Assembly (NCBI GenBank): GCA_965223155.1
Contig: CBDCVR010000013.1
Span: forward strand, 1,024,001 to 1,088,000
Direction: 5' to 3'
DNA length: 64,000 nt
DNA from: Candidatus Multivoradales bacterium
Lineage (GTDB): Bacteria > Acidobacteriota > Thermoanaerobaculia > Multivoradales > JAHEKO01
The notes beneath the pieces were generated by a model that had not been told where the DNA came from, searched no databases, and saw nothing but the letters and a program-made list of their open reading frames with translations. The position numbers were made by a program, and so were the translations under genes. Within the stretch, counting starts at the first letter, position 1; every line of letters starts with the position of its first letter. Positions 1-54,673 of the stretch are shown here, one piece after another.

Positions 1-2
1 GC

Positions 3-110
3 TTTGAGTTGCAGCGCCGTCGCCAGACGAATACCGGCAACTTCGACTGGGTCACCGAGACTCTGTCGCCACGTATCTTCCGTCTGGGCGTCCGCCTGAA
101 CTGGCGGTAA
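3..110 (+). CDS. 3' end of probable TonB-dependent receptor (partial)
   Basis: Frame from position 3 reads FELQRRRQTNTGNFDWVTETLSPRIFRLGVRLNWR*, a typical acidobacterial TBDR C-terminal beta-strand. A terminator follows. Confidence 0.7.
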   Translation, partial: FELQRRRQTNTGNFDWVTETLSPRIFRLGVRLNWR

Positions 111-133
111 GCCGAACCTCAATCCTGAGGTCC

Positions 134-165
134 AGGGCCGGGGGGTAACCCCCGGCCCTTTTTCT
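134..165 (+). terminator. Rho-independent terminator
   Basis: AGGGCCGGGGG-GTAA-CCCCCGGCCCT perfect stem followed by TTTTCT, just downstream of the stop at 110. Confidence 0.9.
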
Positions 166-237
166 TGCCTAGCCATCGGACGGGACAGACGCGAACGTTG
201 CCCGGACCTTCGGCCGGCAGGAACGCCGGAGGACGGC

Positions 238-385
238 GGCCGGCGGGAGCGCCGGGGGACGGCGGCCGCTAGGAGGCTTGCGAGGACTCGGCGTCCGCCT
301 GCACGCGGCTACGCGCAGACCACTGAGGGTTCCCGAACCTTGGTCCCGAGCGCTTGCCGCGAGCCCCCCGGACGTCCTGCCGGCC
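238..385 (-). repeat. Structured repeat element, copy A (same family as the 53.5-54.2 kb array)
   Basis: The reverse complement contains GGGGGCTCGCGGCAAGCGC...AGCCGCGTGCAGG...GTCCCC, the same blocks as the array units, inside a terminal inverted repeat. Confidence 0.8.
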
Positions 386-462
386 TCGAGCCTGAAGCGA
401 CCTGGCGTGATTGGCTTGGAACGACTGACAAGAAGGCTCCCCCCGCGAGGCGGCAGAGCTGA

Positions 463-623
463 GGCTGAGGAGCGGGCGGTGGTTGTGCGGGGCTCGGACC
501 GAGCGCCCAGAACCACGAACGGAGGCCCTCTCGAACCGGCGCGAAGGTCGGCGCAGGGCCGCGTCCACACTCCAGAGGCCTCCCAGCGCGGCCCGTCCCG
601 CACGGCACCGCCCGCTCCCAGCC
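463..623 (+). repeat. Structured repeat element, copy B
   Basis: Outer stem GGAGCGGGCGGTG/CACCGCCCGCTCC plus GTGCGGG/CCCGCAC. Core GGGGCTC..GAGCGC..GCAGGGCCGCG..CGCGGCCCGTCCC is shared with the array units. Confidence 0.75.
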
Positions 624-671
624 GACAACGAGGCGGGTGCTGGCATGGCTTGGGAGTATCCTGTCGCTTCG

Positions 672-1556
672 ATGCGCTACCTCAAGACCGTCTCGCTTCT
701 GGCCGCCGCCAGCGCGTTCTACCTCTTGATCGCGGGCTCCCAGGTCAATTCCTGGCAGGCGGCGCTCTCGGTGCCGGACTGGCCACTGTCGTACGGACAC
801 CTCCTGGCCCCTTCCTGGCCTGGCAACCTGTTCTACGAACAGCACCACCGAGCCACGGCGGCTTCGACGGTCGTGCTCTTTGCGCTGGTGCTGGTCGGAT
901 TGGCCCGGCGGCGGGAGCTGGCCGCCGCCCGGCGGCTCGGCTGGTGGGCAGCAGCAGCGCTGGCCGCTCAGACCCTGATGGGAGGCTTGATCGTTCTGAA
1001 GCTCAATCCACCGTGGCTCGGTGCCAGCCACGTGGTCCTCGCCATCGTCACGGTCGTCTTGATCGCGGTAACGGCCCTGCTCGTCTGGAGAGATCCGGTT
1101 CGAGAGGATCTTCCGGAGCCGCGGGACACCGGTCTCGAGCGCATCGAGCGAAGGGCTGCGCTCGGACTCGGCCTGCTCGGACTCCAGATCGCTCTCGGGT
1201 CGCTCGCCCGCCACCCCCCCGCCGGCGAGCTGGCGTTCATCGCGACCTTGCTCGCTCATCTCTTCGTGGGACTCGTCCTGATCGTCTGGACCTCGCTTGT
1301 GGGCCTGTCGGCGGGCCGCAGCCGGCGCATGGGCAGAGCTCGGGCTTGGGGCTGGGTGCTCGTGCTCGTCGCCGCACTCCAGCTCGCGGTCGGCGCTTGG
1401 GTGTTCGTGGTCGCCCCCGAGCCGTTCGCCGAGAGCTGGCCGCCGCCGTCCGGATTCCCGGCAGCCCACGCCCTTCACATCGTGCTGGCGGCGGCGCTCG
1501 CCACCGCGCTGGTCGCCGTCCGGATCGAGAGCCGCCAGCGGACTAGGGCGTGTTAA
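672..1556 (+). CDS. COX15/CtaA-family heme A synthase-like membrane protein
   Basis: About 8 TM segments, SVPDWPLSYG and EQHHR motifs, conserved His residues. The last codons come from the IS end. Start is uncertain (645 or 672). Confidence 0.7.
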   Translation: MRYLKTVSLLAAASAFYLLIAGSQVNSWQAALSVPDWPLSYGHLLAPSWPGNLFYEQHHRATAASTVVLFALVLVGLARRRELAAARRLGWWAAAALAAQTLMGGLIVLKLNPPWLGASHVVLAIVTVVLIAVTALLVWRDPVREDLPEPRDTGLERIERRAALGLGLLGLQIALGSLARHPPAGELAFIATLLAHLFVGLVLIVWTSLVGLSAGRSRRMGRARAWGWVLVLVAALQLAVGAWVFVVAPEPFAESWPPPSGFPAAHALHIVLAAALATALVAVRIESRQRTRAC

Positions 1557-2359
1557 CACTGTCGCAGTGCATCAGCGATGAGGGCGAAATGGATGAAGGC
1601 GATGTACATGACGTCGAGCTTCTCGAATCTGGAAAAGATGCGCCGGTAGCCTTTGAGCCGGCGAAAGAGCCGTTCGATCTCGTTGCGACGTTTGTAGAGG
1701 AGCCGGTCGTAGGCCCAGGGCCGAAGGCGAGTGCTCAAGGGTGGCACGACAGGGGTATAGCCGAGATTCAGAGCGAGTTGTCGGGTTTCGTTGCCTTCGT
1801 AGGCTCGGTCCATGACAAGCGCGATCGGTTGCTTCGGTCGGCCCAGGTCTTTCAGCAAGCATCGGCCGACGGGCGCATCGTGCGCTTGGCCGGGCGAGAG
1901 GCAGAAGGTGATGGCTGTTCGAGCATCTGCGGCAACCATATGAATCTTGGTGGTCCATCCACCGCGGGACTTTCCAATGGCCTGGGGGCCGTTTTTTTTA
2001 ATGCTCCCGTACCGTCGGGGTGAACCCGCACGATCGTGCTGTCAAGTGACACGGCCTCGATCTTGACTCGCACGATCTGCTCCTCTTGGAGCCGCGCGAA
2101 CACCCGATCCAACACGCCGTTCTTGGACCAACGGTTCATGCGAGTGTAGATCGTGTGCCAATTCCCGAATCGTTTCGGGAGCCCGCGCCACTTGCAGCCG
2201 TGTTCGGCAACGTAGAGAATTGCGTTCAGCACTTGAACATTCGGCACGCTGACGTTGCCTCGCTGCACTGGAAAGCAATCTGCAATGCGCTCGTACTGTT
2301 TCTCCGTGATTTCCATGCACGGAGCTTATACGATCCTAACCCTTAAGTGTTAACAGGCC
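1547..2359 (-). mobile_element. IS5-family insertion sequence (IS427-like), ~813 bp
   Basis: 14-bp terminal IRs GGCGTGTTAACACT / AGTGTTAACAGGCC (1 mismatch), flanked by CTAG at 1543-1546 and 2360-2363. GC is lower than in the flanks. Confidence 0.93.
1553..2316 (-). CDS. IS5-family transposase, two ORFs joined by a -1 frameshift
   Basis: OrfA (GCKWRGLPKRFGNWHTIYTR, SLDST) and OrfB (MDRAY, YKRRNEIERLFRRLK). An A8 run at 1992-1999 joins GALKK to NGPQAIGKSRGGWTTKIH. Confidence 0.92.
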
Positions 2360-3955
2360 CTAGCCGCCGAGAGCCCGCGCCATGAGGTTCCGCCTGGCGA
2401 TCGACGAAGCGGTCAGATAGCCCGACATCAAGGCTCCTACCACCCCACAGGTGGTCATGTCCTGGCCGGTCAGGTAGAGACCGCGGATCGGGGTCTCGGG
2501 CCGGAGCGTCCGGTCCGCGAAGCGCTCCGGTGTGTGCTCCAGGCCGTAGATCTCACCCCGCGCGTAGCCGGCGAAGTGGCGCGTGGAAAGCGGCGTTGAC
2601 ACTTCCATGTAGTCGATCTTGTCCCGGACTCCGGGCAAGGCGCCGTCGAGCCGATCCAGCATCCGGGCGGCAAGGGCCGCCTTGAGCTCTTCGTAGTCTG
2701 TGCCCCGCTCGCGCCACGGGGTCCCGCTCCAGCGCTCGAAGCGCTCCCAGGGAGCCAGGGTAATGAGCTCTATGGTGGCTCGGCCCGGATACTTGGCTTC
2801 GAACTCGGGGTCCTTGGCCGACGGGAACGAGGCGTAGACCAGCGGCAGCGGCGCCTCAGGATCCGCGACGAAGGCCGCGACCGAAGCGTCGTGGTCCGGC
2901 CCCGGATAGATCCAGAGGTTGTGCTTGGGCAGCCCCAGCTCGGCAGCGGTGTGGCGGAATCCCAGGTAGAGGCAGAGATGCCCAACGGAGGGCGGCCGTT
3001 GTTCCGCCCGCCGATCGAGGCCGAAGCCGGCCGCGGTCTCCGCATCCAGGAGAGACCGGTAGGTCGCGTGGACGCCGGCATCGCTGATGACGATCGGGGC
3101 ATGAAGCTCGCGCCCGTCGGTCATGCGAACGCCCACGGCACGGCGACCCTGAACCAGGACCCGCTCGACCTCGGCCTGGTAGAAGACCTCGCCGCCCGCT
3201 TGCTGGATGACGGGTGCGATAGCGGCGGCGATCCGGGACGACCCGCCCACCGGGTAGTAGCCCCCGTAGAGATAGTGCTTGGCCAGCATCGCCTGCATGG
3301 CGAACGAGCTCTGGGCCGGCGGCAGGCCGTAGTCGCCGAACTGGCCGGTCAGCACACCTTGGAGCTCGGCGCCGGCTCCCAGCTCGTCGAGCACCGTGCG
3401 AGTCGTACGCCCGGCCCAACGCAGGAACGGAGCCCGGAGGAAAGGCCCGGCGAGCCGCGCCACCAGCGGCGGCAGCGCCTTCTCGGCAAAGAACCGGTTC
3501 GAGCTCCGGGCGACCTGATCCATCAGCTCGAGATAGCGGTCGACGGCGCCAGTCTCCCGCGGAAAGTAGCCGTGCAGCCGGTCGCGGAAGGCGTCGCGGC
3601 CGGACACTAGATCGTACGTTCGCTCCCCGAGCAAGATGCGGTCGTAGAGCTCGCCCATCGGCGCCCATTCGAGGCTGCCGTCGGTAACCCAGTTGAGTAA
3701 CCGAAGCGTGGGCGACTTGGTGCTCCCCATGCCACCGACGTAGTGGACGCCGACGTCCCACTCGTAGCCGCGACGCCGGTAGACGTGGGTAAAGCCTCCC
3801 GGCATGTAGTGTCGCTCCAGCACCGCGACCCGCTTGCCGAGAGCCCGGCCCAGCACCGCCGCCGAAGCCAGGCCGCCCACACCGGAGCCGATGACCAGGA
3901 CGTCGAACTCCCGGTCGGGTGGCTTCTTGCGATAGCTCCTGCCGACTCGGATCAT
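2360..3955 (-). CDS. FAD-dependent oxidoreductase, phytoene desaturase/retinol saturase family
   Basis: GSGVGG Rossmann motif, GYEWDVGVHY, YPVGGSS, C-terminal GLYLTGQD. Confidence 0.85.
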   Translation of the reverse strand: MIRVGRSYRKKPPDREFDVLVIGSGVGGLASAAVLGRALGKRVAVLERHYMPGGFTHVYRRRGYEWDVGVHYVGGMGSTKSPTLRLLNWVTDGSLEWAPMGELYDRILLGERTYDLVSGRDAFRDRLHGYFPRETGAVDRYLELMDQVARSSNRFFAEKALPPLVARLAGPFLRAPFLRWAGRTTRTVLDELGAGAELQGVLTGQFGDYGLPPAQSSFAMQAMLAKHYLYGGYYPVGGSSRIAAAIAPVIQQAGGEVFYQAEVERVLVQGRRAVGVRMTDGRELHAPIVISDAGVHATYRSLLDAETAAGFGLDRRAEQRPPSVGHLCLYLGFRHTAAELGLPKHNLWIYPGPDHDASVAAFVADPEAPLPLVYASFPSAKDPEFEAKYPGRATIELITLAPWERFERWSGTPWRERGTDYEELKAALAARMLDRLDGALPGVRDKIDYMEVSTPLSTRHFAGYARGEIYGLEHTPERFADRTLRPETPIRGLYLTGQDMTTCGVVGALMSGYLTASSIARRNLMARALGG

Positions 3956-27097: not shown

Positions 27098-27174
<77 letters not shown>

Positions 27175-52656: not shown

Positions 52657-53358
52657 CTGCCCGACCAGATCGTCCAGGGTCTCGTCTACTACGTCGTCTT
52701 CGTCTTCGCGGCCACCTTCCACGAGGCCGCACACGCCTGGGCCGCCAAGCTGGGCGGCGACCTGACCGCCTACCACGGCGGACAGGTCTCCCTGGATCCT
52801 CTGCCCCACATCCGGCGGGAGCCCTTCGGCATGGTCGTGCTGCCGCTCTTGACCGTCTTTCTGACCGGCTGGCCCTTCGGCTACGCCAGCGCCCCCTACA
52901 ATCCAGCCTGGGCCCGGCGGCACCCACAACGGGCCGCCCTGATGTCGCTGGCGGGACCGGGGGCCAACCTGCTGCTGATCCTGGGTGCCGCGCTGGCGAT
53001 CCGGATCGGCATGGGCCTCGGCAGCCTGAAGACACCCGCTCAGGTGTCGTTTGCCCAGGTTGCGGCGCCGGCCGCGGGCGGATGGCCCGAAGCCGTCACC
53101 CTGGTGCTGAGCGTCGTCTTCTCGCTCAATCTGGTGCTGATGCTCCTGAACCTCATTCCGGTGCCGCCTCTCGACGGCTACGGCGCGTTACCGCTCATCC
53201 TCCCGGCCGGTCTGCGAAATGCGTACGAATCCCTCCAGCGCCAGCCCATGATCGGATGGATCGGCATCCTGGTGGCCTGGCGTCTCTTCGACGCGCTCTA
53301 CCACCCGGTGTTTCTGTTCGCGGTGAACCTTCTCTACCCCGAAGCGCGCTACGGGTAG
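52657..53358 (+). CDS. Site-2 protease (M50 family)
   Basis: HEAAH, LAGPGAN, NLIPVPPLDG. The only plausible start upstream of HExxH is CTG. Confidence 0.88.
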   Translation: MPDQIVQGLVYYVVFVFAATFHEAAHAWAAKLGGDLTAYHGGQVSLDPLPHIRREPFGMVVLPLLTVFLTGWPFGYASAPYNPAWARRHPQRAALMSLAGPGANLLLILGAALAIRIGMGLGSLKTPAQVSFAQVAAPAAGGWPEAVTLVLSVVFSLNLVLMLLNLIPVPPLDGYGALPLILPAGLRNAYESLQRQPMIGWIGILVAWRLFDALYHPVFLFAVNLLYPEARYG

Positions 53359-53397
53359 GTAGTCCCGCCCGGCATCCTGGCGGGCATGCGACCTCCT

Positions 53398-53453
53398 CAC
53401 GGGTCGGTCCTCATGGGTCGGTCCCCATGGATCTTTCTCCACGGGTCTCGACG
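53398..53453. repeat. Degenerate 14-bp tandem repeat x4 (CAYGGRTC core)
   Basis: cacgggtcggtcct / catgggtcggtccc / catggatctttctc / cacgggtctcgacg. Confidence 0.55.
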
Positions 53454-53471
53454 CCACCGAGGCTGCCTAGC

Positions 53472-54250
53472 CCGAGCACCAGGCGTTGCGCCGGCCGGCG
53501 CCCCACCGGGGCTCGCGGCAAGCGCACAGAGCAAGCTAGGCAGTCCGAGACGGTACGTCGCGCAGCCGCGCGTAGGGCCGCGCCGAACGCTTCGAAGGCC
53601 CAATCGCGCAGCCCGTCCCCTGGGGTGCCAGCAGGCGCACGCCTGGCGAGACCGAGTACCTTGCCAAGGCCGAGTAAGCACCAAGGCGTTGCACCAGTGG
53701 GCCCTACGGGGGCTCGCGGCAAGCGCACAGAGCAAGCTAGGCAGTCCGAGACGGTATGTCGCGCAGCCGCGTGCAGGGCCGCGCCGAACGCTTCGAAGGC
53801 CCAATCGCGCGGCCCGTCCCCTGGGGCGCCAGCAGGCGCACGCCTGGCGGAGACCGAGTACCTTGCCCAGCCCGCGCGAGCACCGAAGCGTTCCGCCAGT
53901 GGCGCCCCACGGGGGCTCGCGGCAAGCGCAGAGAGCAAGCTGGGCAGTCCGAGACGGCGCGGCGCGCAGCCGCGTGCAGGGCCGCGCCGAACCCTTCGAA
54001 GGCCCAATCGCGCGGCCCGTCCCCTGGGATGCTACCGGCGCACCCCTGCGACGCCGAGTACCTTGCCAAGGCCGAGTATGCACCAAGGCGTCGCGCCGGC
54101 TGGCGCCCCACGGGGGCTCGCGGCAAGCGCACAGAGCAAGCTAGGCAGTCCGAGACGGCGCGGCGCACAGCCGCGTGCAGGGCCGCGCCGAACGCTTCGA
54201 ACGCCCAATCGCGCGGCCCGTCCCCTGGGGCGCCAGCAGGCGCACGCCCA
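53472..54250 (+). repeat. Tandem array of four ~202-bp structured units
   Basis: Anchor GCTCGCGGCAAGCGC at 53511, 53712, 53915 and 54116 (periods 201, 203, 201). Each core is bounded by GGCGCCCCA/TGGGGCGCC-type inverted ends. Confidence 0.95.
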
Positions 54251-54310
54251 GCGAGGGAAAATCAGTCCGTCAAGAACAAGCCGACAAGGCGGCCGATCTT
54301 CGCAGGCTCT

Positions 54311-54673
54311 CTAGTCTTCGCGCTCGACCCACTCGAGGAGCGCCATCTCGGCGCCGTCGCCCTTGCGCGGGCCCAGCTTGACGATTCGCGTGTAGCCACC
54401 TTGCCGGTCGGAGAATCGCGGCGCGATCTCGTCGAAGAGCTTCTTCACCCGGCTTCGATCCGCAAGCCATCGCCGCACCTGACGGCGGGCGTGGATTGAG
54501 TCCTTCTTGCCGTGGGTGACCATCTTCTCGGCGATCGGCCGCAGCTCCTTGGCCTTGGCGAGAGTCGTGGTGATCCGCTCGTGATCCACCAGGGACGCCA
54601 GCTGGTTGCGAAACATCGCGATCCGGTGCGAGCTGGTGCGGCCTAGCTTGCGGCCGTGTACGTTGTGTCTCAT
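54311..54673 (-). CDS. rplQ: 50S ribosomal protein L17
   Basis: [20 protein letters not shown]. Confidence 0.97.

What the first reader, a model, noticed from the sequence alone, without database searches (positions are those of the whole stretch)
238..623. Two diverged copies reveal a covarying structured RNA/ssDNA family with two variable loops of near-constant length
Seen: copy A (238-385, minus) and copy B (463-623, plus) lie back-to-back and share a scaffold with the array units 53 kb away. The scaffold is P1-GGGGCTC-P2-RAGCGC-[33-34 nt variable]-CGCGN-A-P2'-GYGCA-P4-[23-24 nt variable]-P4'-GTCCC-P1'. Stems change sequence but keep pairing. P2 is CGGC/GCCG in the array and A but GACC/GGTC in B. 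P4 is GGGCCGCG/CGCGGCCC in the array and B but GGCGG/CCGCC in A. P1 differs in all three yet stays complementary. Each variable segment has a possible tiny central hairpin (GG-N4-CC and CT-N4-AG). Inference: structure rather than sequence is under selection. Two stem/internal-loop/hairpin domains are reminiscent of IS110/IS1111 bridge or seek RNAs, so these could be orphan guide-like RNAs. A new REP/MITE-type family is the alternative. No cognate recombinase or HUH transposase is in this window, and I do not recognise an Rfam family.
Basis: partly seen in the sequence, partly recalled or inferred. Interest (0 to 1): 0.85.

Follow-up and report, generated by a model that had tools for sequence, protein, structure and literature searches.

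The report
Branched structured repeat family in Acidobacteriota
The two back-to-back copies and the distant four-unit array belong to a previously undescribed family of about 170-200-base intergenic repeats that fold into a three-armed structure, occur in up to dozens of copies per genome in one group of uncultured Acidobacteriota, and look like a new kind of REP/MITE-type repeat rather than orphan guide RNAs.

Summary
Copies A (238-385, minus), B (463-623, plus) and the 4 x ~201-nt array (53481-54255, plus) share one scaffold. It has a long P1 stem closing a three-way junction with two arms whose loops vary in sequence but hardly in length. The genome holds 12 copies. A covariance model finds the family in 26 of 61 related genomes, with up to 48 matches in one genome under a scoring cap. 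It is almost confined to one GTDB family: 5 of 151 genomes in a class-wide sample, all in that family. Named hits are all Thermoanaerobaculia/Acidobacteriota MAGs. In a structure-blind alignment, 22 of 25 pairs carry compensatory changes. No Rfam family matches.

The bridge/seek-RNA reading is not supported. No IS110 gene lies near any copy, and genomes rich in copies gave no IS110, Y1-HUH or RT match. The loops match neither flanks nor other genomic sites.

Several features fit a REPIN/BIME/MITE-like repeat. Copy number differs widely among congeners and positions are not orthologous. There are head-to-head pairs, tandem arrays and truncated or palindromic derivatives. No promoter or terminator is seen. 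The mobilising machinery is unidentified. Transcription could not be tested, so an RNA role stays open.

The parts
238..385 (-). Copy A: full element. P1 is about 18 bp and closes a three-way junction. The P2/P3 arm carries a ~33-nt variable loop and the P4 arm a ~21-nt variable loop.
   Evidence: CM R1 hit 241-382 (-), 123.1 bits. Sequence read. MFE z -3.43.
386..462 (.). Spacer between the 5' ends of the head-to-head pair A(-)/B(+). It is about 100 nt shorter than in the paralogous pairs on contig C14.
   Evidence: Sequence. blastn between the two paralogous regions.
463..623 (+). Copy B: full element. P1 is about 26 bp (GGCTG.GGAGCGGGCGGTG..GTGC pairing with GCAC..CACCGCCCGCTCC.CAGCC). The P2 sequence differs from the array and from A.
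   Evidence: CM R1 hit 474-614 (+), 114.7 bits. MFE z -3.79, 0 of 200 shuffles as stable.
53481..53650 (+). Array unit 1: element with a ~27-bp P1. About 31 nt of linker follows.
   Evidence: the repeat finder family D1. CM hit 53493-53634, 123.1 bits. Sequence.
53682..53851 (+). Array unit 2.
   Evidence: D1, 86% identical to unit 1. CM hit 53694-53835, 130.3 bits.
53885..54054 (+). Array unit 3.
   Evidence: D1, 76%. CM hit 53897-54038, 124.8 bits.
54086..54255 (+). Array unit 4. It lies 56 nt from the stop codon (54311) of a convergent minus-strand ORF.
   Evidence: D1, 92%. CM hit 54098-54239, 128.9 bits. ORF list.

Best explanation
These are members of a new, lineage-restricted family of structured interspersed repeats. 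Each unit is about 165-200 nt.

Anatomy:
- A long imperfect terminal stem, P1 (25-45 bp), so the two ends are inverted repeats.
- P1 closes a three-way junction whose core is strongly conserved: GGGG-GCUC, then P2, an AA / G(U/C)A internal loop, then P3; GCGCAGG then P4; CGUCCCC.
- The two arms end in loops that are free in sequence but held at about 33 and 21 nt.

One specific strand is the one that folds.

My best reading is a REPIN/BIME/MITE-like non-autonomous genomic repeat. I infer that the single-stranded folded core is what an unidentified trans-acting protein recognises, and that this recognition allows the unit to be copied, amplified in tandem, paired head-to-head and lost again.

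Shown: the family, its fold, its distribution, its turnover, its arrangements, and that it does not depend on IS110, Y1-HUH or RT genes.

Inferred: that it spreads as DNA, that a protein recognises the junction, and that any effect on neighbouring genes (for example as a transcript-end hairpin) is secondary.
For: Family and fold:
- The genome holds 12 copies.
- 26 of 61 relatives carry matches, up to 48 and 37 per genome with only 52 candidates scored. Core-motif scans give 62 and 36 hits for the 5' core against reversed-pattern controls of 10 and 5.
- A structure-blind MAFFT alignment of 26 copies recovers the three-way junction. 22 of 25 pairs carry double changes. 93.7% of cells pair, against 73.6% in shuffles and at most 50% when partners are slid.
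- The CM-fitted alignment of 48 copies gives 27 of 29 pairs.

Strand-specific folding:
- G.U 70 against A.C 40.
- G.A/A.G 125 against C.U/U.C 8.

Turnover:
- Congeners carry 1, 5, 12, 37 and 48 matches.
- No copy lies downstream of rplQ in 4 of 4 congeners. None was found in the four best receptor-homologue loci from the two congeners (of four) that gave a DNA match, including the 76%-identical one.
- Many copies sit at contig ends.

Repeat-like behaviour:
- 90 of 93 copies are intergenic by a crude ORF call.
- Between co-directional genes, 6 copies are sense and 6 antisense.
- No neighbouring protein family recurs in a way that suggests linkage.
- The core is 89.5% identical within one genome, against 51-58% for the loops and distal P1.
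- The predominant P2 sequence is genome-specific: CTCCGC in 16 of 20 exact hits in G001 and CGCCGC in 32 of 45 in G002.
- There are tandem arrays and head-to-head (-,+) pairs at 10 independent loci in 7 genomes. The only (+,-) case is one tandem-duplication junction.
- Palindromic dimers of the 3' half and 5'-truncated copies exist.

No sign of an independent gene:
- No sigma-70-like promoter was found in either window region.
- No T-run follows P1.
- The array lies between terminator-like hairpins of convergent genes.

REPINs show the same logic of conserved inverted ends, a less conserved spacer of kept length, and common compensatory changes (PMC3116915, passages read).
Against: - No mobilising enzyme was identified. 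Y1_Tnp gave no match in G001 (99% complete, at least 37 copies). IS110 gave none in G017 and G022. RT gave none in G000, G001, G017, G028 or G032.
- No target-site duplication was seen by eye at the ends of 16 + 26 aligned copies.
- No empty site was recovered.
- No longer, ORF-bearing relative was found.
- Orientation shows no replication-strand bias in G022: 9 of 19 copies in one orientation. That does not fit IS200/IS605-style insertion into the lagging-strand template.
- A branched core with a conserved junction and constant loop lengths is more elaborate than any REP or MITE I know. That kind of core is typical of functional RNAs.
- Strand-specific G.U and G.A tolerance fits RNA at least as well as ssDNA.
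- Head-to-head pairs would also suit divergent transcription from the spacer.
- Some subfamilies share about 100 nt of conserved 5' flank, which could be a leader.
Confidence: 0.55

Rival explanations
1. A multi-copy family of small structured RNAs, or RNA modules processed from longer transcripts. The conserved three-way junction would bind a common protein. The two constant-length variable loops would carry copy-specific information such as target pairing, or act as neutral spacers. Head-to-head pairs would be divergently transcribed from the spacer.
For: - Covariation is strong.
- Folding is strand-specific, with G.U and tandem G.A tolerated: 70 against 40, and 125 against 8.
- Junction nucleotides are conserved and loop lengths are tightly kept.
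- 5'-to-5' pairs outnumber the opposite arrangement 10 to 0.
- Some subfamilies share a conserved 5' flank.
Against: - No sigma-70-like promoter, and no T-run after P1.
- The array lies between terminator-like hairpins of convergent genes.
- Copies A and B lie beyond a strong terminator.
- Copies between co-directional genes are sense and antisense equally, 6 and 6.
- Copy number runs from 1 to about 60 among congeners, and positions are not orthologous.
- Truncated and palindromic derivatives are common.
- The loops have no genomic targets longer than 16 nt, apart from a low-complexity 19/20 match.
Confidence: 0.3
2. Orphan guide RNAs of the IS110/IS1111 bridge or seek type. The two variable loops would pair with target and donor DNA for a recombinase encoded elsewhere.
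For: - There are two stem-loop domains with variable segments.
- The genome carries 17 IS110-family genes.
- IS110 elements are known to use structured RNAs with two programmable loops (PMC11208160, passages read).
Against: - No copy lies within 25 kb of an IS110 gene.
- The near-complete genomes G017 and G022 (12 and 19 copies) gave no PF01548 match, nor did G008, G009, G010, G030 or G038.
- Bridge RNAs sit in the IS's own non-coding end, and their guides lie in internal loops. Here the variable parts are terminal loops.
- The loops match their flanks no better than non-cognate flanks.
- Copies within one array carry nearly the same loops.
Confidence: 0.03
3. A new self-cleaving ribozyme or retrozyme-like repeat. 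A three-way junction with a conserved core, multiple copies and tandem arrays is the pattern seen for hammerhead and twister-bearing repeats.
For: - The element has a three-way junction with conserved junction nucleotides.
- It occurs in tandem arrays and in many copies per genome.
Against: - No match to any ribozyme family in Rfam 15, even at E up to 10.
- The hammerhead and twister core motifs (recalled, not tested by a call) are not visible in the consensus.
- RT gave no match in most carrier genomes.
- No circular or cleaved form could be tested.
Confidence: 0.04

Closest known systems
REPINs / REP sequences with RAYT transposases (Bertels & Rainey 2011, PMC3116915; passages read)
   Same: - Non-coding, intergenic, tens of copies per genome, mostly vertically confined to a lineage.
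- Conserved inverted ends pair into a hairpin in a single strand.
- The central spacer is less conserved but keeps its length.
- Compensatory changes are common.
- Singlets, doublets and clusters occur.
   Different: - The unit is about 170-200 nt with a branched three-way-junction core. A REPIN is a simple hairpin of two ~20-nt REPs.
- The most conserved part is the inner junction, not the ends.
- No RAYT association. Y1_Tnp gave no match in G001, and the single Y1 gene of G000 (C14:32014-32367) lies about 690 kb from the nearest copy on that contig.
E. coli BIMEs (mosaics of REP subtypes; recalled from the literature, no paper read here)
   Same: - Two distinct subtypes alternate in inverted orientation with characteristic linkers.
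- The pair unit can be tandemly amplified. Here that is A(-)/B(+) in G000, present twice in tandem on C14, and two subtypes paired in G002.
   Different: - The units are about five times longer and branched.
- The binding proteins of BIMEs (IHF, gyrase, Pol I; recalled) have no tested counterpart here.
MITEs and structured repeats such as bcr1, ERIC and Correia elements (review PMC3184786 seen only in a search listing; details recalled)
   Same: The size class (100-400 nt), the terminal inverted repeats, the intergenic multi-copy spread, and the folded single-strand structure.
   Different: - No target-site duplication was seen.
- No parent IS shares the ends.
- The fold is a conserved three-way junction with covarying stems. 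A MITE's fold is usually a by-product of its TIRs.
IS110 bridge RNA / IS1111 seek RNA (PMC11208160, passages read)
   Same: A structured element of about 150-200 nt with two stem-loop domains, each carrying a variable segment.
   Different: - It is not inside or beside an IS110 element.
- It does not co-occur with the recombinase.
- The variable segments are terminal loops, not internal ones, and show no complementarity to flanks.

Membership tests
IS110/IS1111 bridge (seek) RNA | Encoded in the non-coding end of an IS110-family element, next to its recombinase gene | tested here: not met
   The 12 copies and the 17 PF01548 hits in G000 are never closer than about 27 kb (C15:1144349 against 1171107). 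No neighbouring ORF family pointing to a linked gene recurs across the sampled loci (202 ORFs).
IS110/IS1111 bridge (seek) RNA | Co-occurs with an IS110 recombinase in the same genome | tested here: not met
   Carriers G008, G009, G010, G017, G022, G030 and G038 gave no PF01548 match. G017 and G022 are 98-99% complete in 2 and 5 contigs.
IS110/IS1111 bridge (seek) RNA | Two internal loops whose strands pair with target and donor (IS end) DNA | tested here: not met
   The variable parts are terminal loops. The longest loop-flank matches equal the non-cognate control, 5.1-5.9 against 5.2-5.7 nt on average. Short guides of 4-9 nt cannot be excluded by this test.
REPIN / REP-RAYT system | Inverted conserved ends forming a hairpin, with a less conserved spacer of kept length and compensatory changes | tested here: met
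   P1 arms of 25-45 bp covary. The loops are 56-58% identical against 89.5% for the core. Loop lengths are 31-36 and 19-23 nt. However, the interior is branched and is the most conserved part.
REPIN / REP-RAYT system | A cognate RAYT (Y1 HUH) gene, usually flanked by the repeats | tested here: not met
   PF01797 gave no match in G001, G025, G031 or G058, all of which carry the repeat. The one Y1 gene in G000 (C14:32014-32367) is about 690 kb from the nearest copy on that contig.
MITE | Terminal inverted repeats | tested here: met
   The outer P1 arms are inverted repeats, for example GCGCGTCGGC...GCCGACGCGC in one named MAG and GGCGG...CCGCC...GCGC in G002.
MITE | Target-site duplication flanking each copy | tested here: inconclusive
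   None is visible by eye at the ends of 16 + 26 aligned copies. The exact termini are not defined, because no empty site was found.
MITE | An autonomous parent element sharing the ends | tested here: not met
   No neighbouring ORF family pointing to a linked gene recurs. Half-motif scans of G001 and G002 gave no 5' and 3' halves enclosing an ORF. The one candidate, 1.07 kb apart, was a chance match inside a gene. Only two genomes were examined this way.
Any Rfam 15 family | Covariance-model score at or above the family's gathering threshold | tested here: not met
   Only a tRNA passes in the whole window. At E up to 10 the best match on the copies is DUF3800-VI, at 21.4 bits against a gathering score of 35.

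The most novel reading that the evidence does not exclude
The repeats are a programmable family. The three-way-junction core would be the handle for an unknown effector, either a new structure-specific recombinase or nuclease, or an RNA-binding protein. The two constant-length hypervariable loops (about 33 and 21 nt) would carry copy-specific recognition information. That would make this a guide-like or decoy system unrelated to CRISPR, IS110 or TnpB. Equally novel would be a new class of non-autonomous element mobilised by an enzyme outside the IS110, Y1-HUH and RT families.
Probability: 0.1. Interest if true: 0.85.

Novelty: new variant of a known kind. Interest (0 to 1): 0.55.

Why it matters
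Bacterial interspersed repeats with a proven, covarying, branched fold are rare. Most REPs and MITEs are plain hairpins. This family gives a clean case in a poorly studied, uncultured lineage of Acidobacteriota:
- a strongly conserved three-way junction;
- loops of fixed length but free sequence;
- subtype pairing;
- fast turnover between species.

None of the three mobilising enzyme families tested accounts for it.

If it is mobile DNA, it points to an unrecognised structure-specific enzyme. If it is RNA, it is a large new RNA family.

There is also a practical side. These repeats sit at many contig ends and probably break MAG assemblies. They will turn up in screens for novel structured RNAs, so a model for them helps annotation.

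Tried and rejected
- **Rfam** at gathering and at E up to 10: nothing relevant.
- **Loop 1 to loop 2 kissing.** Cognate pairs are no better than non-cognate pairs (mean -13.5 against -13.2 kcal/mol; 38 of 300 permutations reach the observed mean). They are slightly better than shuffled loops (-13.5 against -11.7). However, the best duplexes lie next to the stems, and AGGCC occurs in both loops in only 16 of 95 copies. Left as inconclusive.
- **Loops as guides.** No off-element genomic match beyond 15-16 nt, apart from one 19/20 low-complexity hit (5 hits at E <= 0.1). No enrichment against the copies' own flanks.
- **Replication-strand bias.** A first look at 6 copies suggested one. The full set of 19 copies in G022, set against sampled GC skew, gave 9 of 19, so the idea was dropped.
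- **Enzyme co-occurrence** for PF01797, PF01548 and PF00078: none fits. TnpB, IscB and Y2/IS91 families were not tested.
- **Autonomous parent.** None found.
- **Orthologous loci in four congeners.** No copy.
- **Metagenome scan for relatives of the ctaA-like gene**, to find an empty site: 343 pattern matches, none confirmed. The allowed second metagenome scan was not used.
- **Plasmid and phage collections.** No match.
- **Sequencing runs.** No RNA holder is listed, and 4 holders come from one study, so expression is untested.
- **Read laying on window 1-2500 with 4 contig runs.** The only joints (124->237, 637->237) reproduce the paralogous C14 arrangement. No empty site, and parts without cover say nothing.
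- **Literature.** Searches with 'Thermoanaerobaculia' + 'repeat' (44 papers, 15 listed) and 'Acidobacteria' + 'interspersed repeats' + 'secondary structure' (2 papers) listed nothing on such an element. This is the whole basis for saying I found it undescribed. Supplementary files were not opened.
- **Tallies that include G005.** The tallies include G005, which is flagged unpublished. It gave no repeat match, and no claim here rests on it beyond its place in the denominators.

Full report
**1. The observation**

Reading window 1-1500 and 53200-54500 shows the scaffold exactly as described. Copy A lies on the minus strand at 238-385 and copy B on the plus strand at 463-623. They are arranged with their 5' ends facing each other across a 77-nt spacer.

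The repeat finder reports the distant array as four 170-nt copies at 53481, 53682, 53885 and 54086. They are spaced 201-203 nt apart and are 76-92% identical to the reference copy.

A MAFFT alignment of the six copies and RNAalifold give a three-way junction. The P2 and P4 stems are swapped wholesale between copies while pairing is kept.

A and B fold better than all 200 dinucleotide shuffles, with z -3.4 and -3.8. The trimmed array unit does not, with z -1.15. The reverse strands fold about as well by energy alone.

**2. More copies in the same genome**

nhmmer and a covariance model (R1, built from 11 copies) find 12 copies in the 4.0-Mb genome:
- the six in the window;
- four on contig C14, arranged A-,B+,A-,B+;
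- one diverged full copy on C15;
- one partial copy.

The C14 cluster follows a paralogue of the TonB-dependent-receptor-like gene whose 3' end opens the window. The two regions are 86% identical over 3.2 kb. So the A/B pair was duplicated together with the gene, and on C14 the pair unit was also duplicated in tandem.

The C15 copy lies between convergent genes. The array lies between a plus-strand M50-peptidase-like ORF and a convergent minus-strand ORF, each followed by a terminator-like hairpin. A and B lie beyond a strong intrinsic terminator at 134-159 and about 30 nt upstream of a CtaA/COX15-like gene.

**3. Distribution**

R1 matches 26 of 61 related genomes. By GTDB family the counts are 22 of 36 in the window's own family, 2 of 3 and 1 of 2 in two neighbouring families of the order, and 0 of 19 in the other nine.

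A class-wide even sample gave 5 of 151, all in the same family, and 0 of 146 in 16 other families.

An exact-pattern scan of 185,579 species genomes gave 108 stretches, of which 80 were listed. Among those 80, R1 confirmed 35 matches. All were in records titled Thermoanaerobaculia or Acidobacteriota. The listed hits from other taxa, such as Streptomyces, Solirubrobacterales and Alphaproteobacteria, did not match and are chance.

Matches per genome reach 48 and 37 with only 52 candidates scored. They are 29, 23, 19, 12 and 3 with 150 scored. The 18-nt 5'-core motif occurs 62 and 36 times in G002 and G001, against reversed-pattern controls of 10 and 5. Plasmid and phage collections hold nothing similar.

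**4. Structure**

On a CM-fitted alignment of 48 copies from about 25 genomes, 27 of 29 pairs carry double changes and 91.7% of cells pair. Shuffles give 69.1%, and slid partners give at most 58%.

That alignment leans towards the model, so I repeated the test on a plain MAFFT alignment of 26 copies: three from G000 in the window, one from L003, and one from each of 22 other genomes. RNAalifold recovers the same junction. 22 of 25 pairs carry double changes, and 93.7% of cells pair against 73.6% shuffled and at most 50.2% slid. None of 500 shuffles reaches the observed value on any of the five measures. The tool warns that related sequences can beat shuffles without any structure. The slid controls and the number of pair types argue against that here.

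The full element is longer than the model. In a named MAG (16 copies) and in G002 (26 copies), P1 extends to about 40-45 bp with inverted-repeat ends. In the array it is about 27 bp.

**5. What varies and what does not**

Among 26 copies within G002, the junction and inner stems are 89.5% identical. Loop 1 is 55.8% identical, loop 2 58.0%, and the distal P1 50.8% while staying paired.

Loop lengths in 95 distinct copies are 31-36 nt (mode 33) and 19-23 nt (mode 21).

The predominant P2 sequence is genome-specific: CTCCGC in 16 of 20 exact hits in G001, and CGCCGC in 32 of 45 in G002. G000 has CGCGGC and CGGACC.

Closely related copies share loops with only a few substitutions, for example L005 and L031. 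The loops are therefore inherited and drift. Nothing suggests that they are actively rewritten.

**6. Which strand folds**

In 75 distinct copies, G.U pairs outnumber A.C (70 against 40). G.A/A.G mismatches outnumber their opposite-strand equivalents C.U/U.C (125 against 8). Selection therefore acts on one strand as a single strand. That strand could be RNA or one DNA strand.

**7. Behaviour in genomes**

- 90 of 93 copies are intergenic by a crude GC3-filtered ORF call.
- Where both neighbours were called (23 copies), 7 lie between convergent genes and 4 between divergent genes. Six are sense and 6 antisense between co-directional genes.
- ORFs near the copies (202 in the sampled loci) form no cluster spanning more than three loci. 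The shared neighbours are AcrB, SpoIIE-phosphatase and receptor paralogues.
- Positions are not conserved. The four congeners have no copy downstream of rplQ. None was found in the four best receptor-homologue loci from the two congeners that matched, including the 76%-identical one, which has 710 nt downstream.
- Pairs within 1 kb are head-to-head (-,+) at 10 independent loci in 7 genomes. The opposite arrangement occurs only at the tandem junction on C14.
- In G002 the two members of a pair belong to different subtypes, as A and B do here.
- Tandem same-strand arrays occur in at least three other genomes.
- Derivatives exist: 5'-truncated copies, solo 3' ends, and five palindromic dimers of the 3' half. 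The 3'-core motif is somewhat more frequent than the 5' one after subtracting controls.

**8. Tests of mechanism**

- IS110 genes are present 17 times in G000 but never near a copy. They gave no match in carriers G017 and G022, which are 98-99% complete.
- Y1-HUH genes gave no match in G001, and RT genes none in G000, G001, G017, G028 or G032.
- Orientation shows no replichore bias in G022, where GC skew switches near 0.55 and 2.55 Mb: 9 of 19 copies in one orientation.
- The loops match neither each other in a copy-specific way, nor the flanks, nor other genomic sites.
- No sigma-70-like promoter and no T-run terminator accompany the copies.
- Expression could not be tested (see Tried and rejected).

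**9. Reading**

The family is real, structured and undescribed in Rfam 15 and in the papers I could search.

Its population behaviour is that of a REPIN/BIME/MITE-like repeat. The features are rapid turnover, core sequences that are homogeneous within a genome but differ between genomes, pairs of subtypes, tandem amplification, decay products, indifference to gene orientation, and no transcription signals.

Its anatomy is more elaborate than known repeats of that kind and would suit an RNA. I therefore put the DNA-repeat reading at 0.55 and a multi-copy RNA family at 0.30. The bridge/seek-RNA idea fails three defining features (passages of PMC11208160 read) and stands at about 0.03. The remainder goes to a ribozyme-like element (0.04) or something I have not thought of.

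**10. Comparison**

The nearest known logic is the REPIN (PMC3116915, passages read). Both have conserved inverted ends, a less conserved spacer of kept length, compensatory changes, and singlets, doublets and clusters. This family differs in having a branched core that is the most conserved part, and it lacks a RAYT. I class it as a new variant of a known kind.

Noticed in passing
G000 contigs outside the window (e.g. C13:302383-302814, C15:1171107-1171538): There are 17 IS110-family (PF01548) matches in this 4-Mb genome. Fifteen have identical scores, which suggests a recently active IS. None lies in the window or near a repeat copy.
   Followed up: partly
window 1-640 and L001 2306-5800 (G000:C14): A segmental duplication of about 3.2 kb, 86% identical. 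It carries a TonB-dependent-receptor-like gene, its terminator and the A/B repeat pair. The C14 copy has the pair twice and a spacer about 100 nt longer.
   Followed up: yes
L005, L152, L159, L163, L167, L169 (G002), 20-90 nt 3' of the elements: A second, unrelated short repeat: a ~36-nt hairpin with a GGGGACAC...GTGTCCCC stem. It recurs next to 6-7 of 26 elements in G002 and looks like a classical REP.
   Followed up: no
L065, L078, L087, L096 (one named Thermoanaerobaculia MAG): Four of 16 copies carry the same 25-nt insertion in the 3' strand of P1. Another copy (L047 6986-7152) has loop 1 replaced by a ~60-nt hairpin. A further ~45-nt module recurs 20-40 nt downstream of about 6 copies.
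   Followed up: no
window 134-159 (+): A strong intrinsic terminator (11-bp GC stem followed by TTTTTCTT) directly after the receptor-like gene and upstream of copy A.
   Followed up: yes
L157, L162, L165, L166, L150 (G002), about 110 nt 5' of one subtype: One subtype of the repeat shares a conserved ~100-nt 5' flank with small hairpins (CAAA-CGGC-TTTG, GCCG-AGAC-CGGC). A related CGAGACCG motif sits in the linkers of the window's array. It may belong to the unit or be a leader.
   Followed up: partly
window 27098-27171 (+): An ordinary tRNA gene, the only Rfam match in the window.
   Followed up: no
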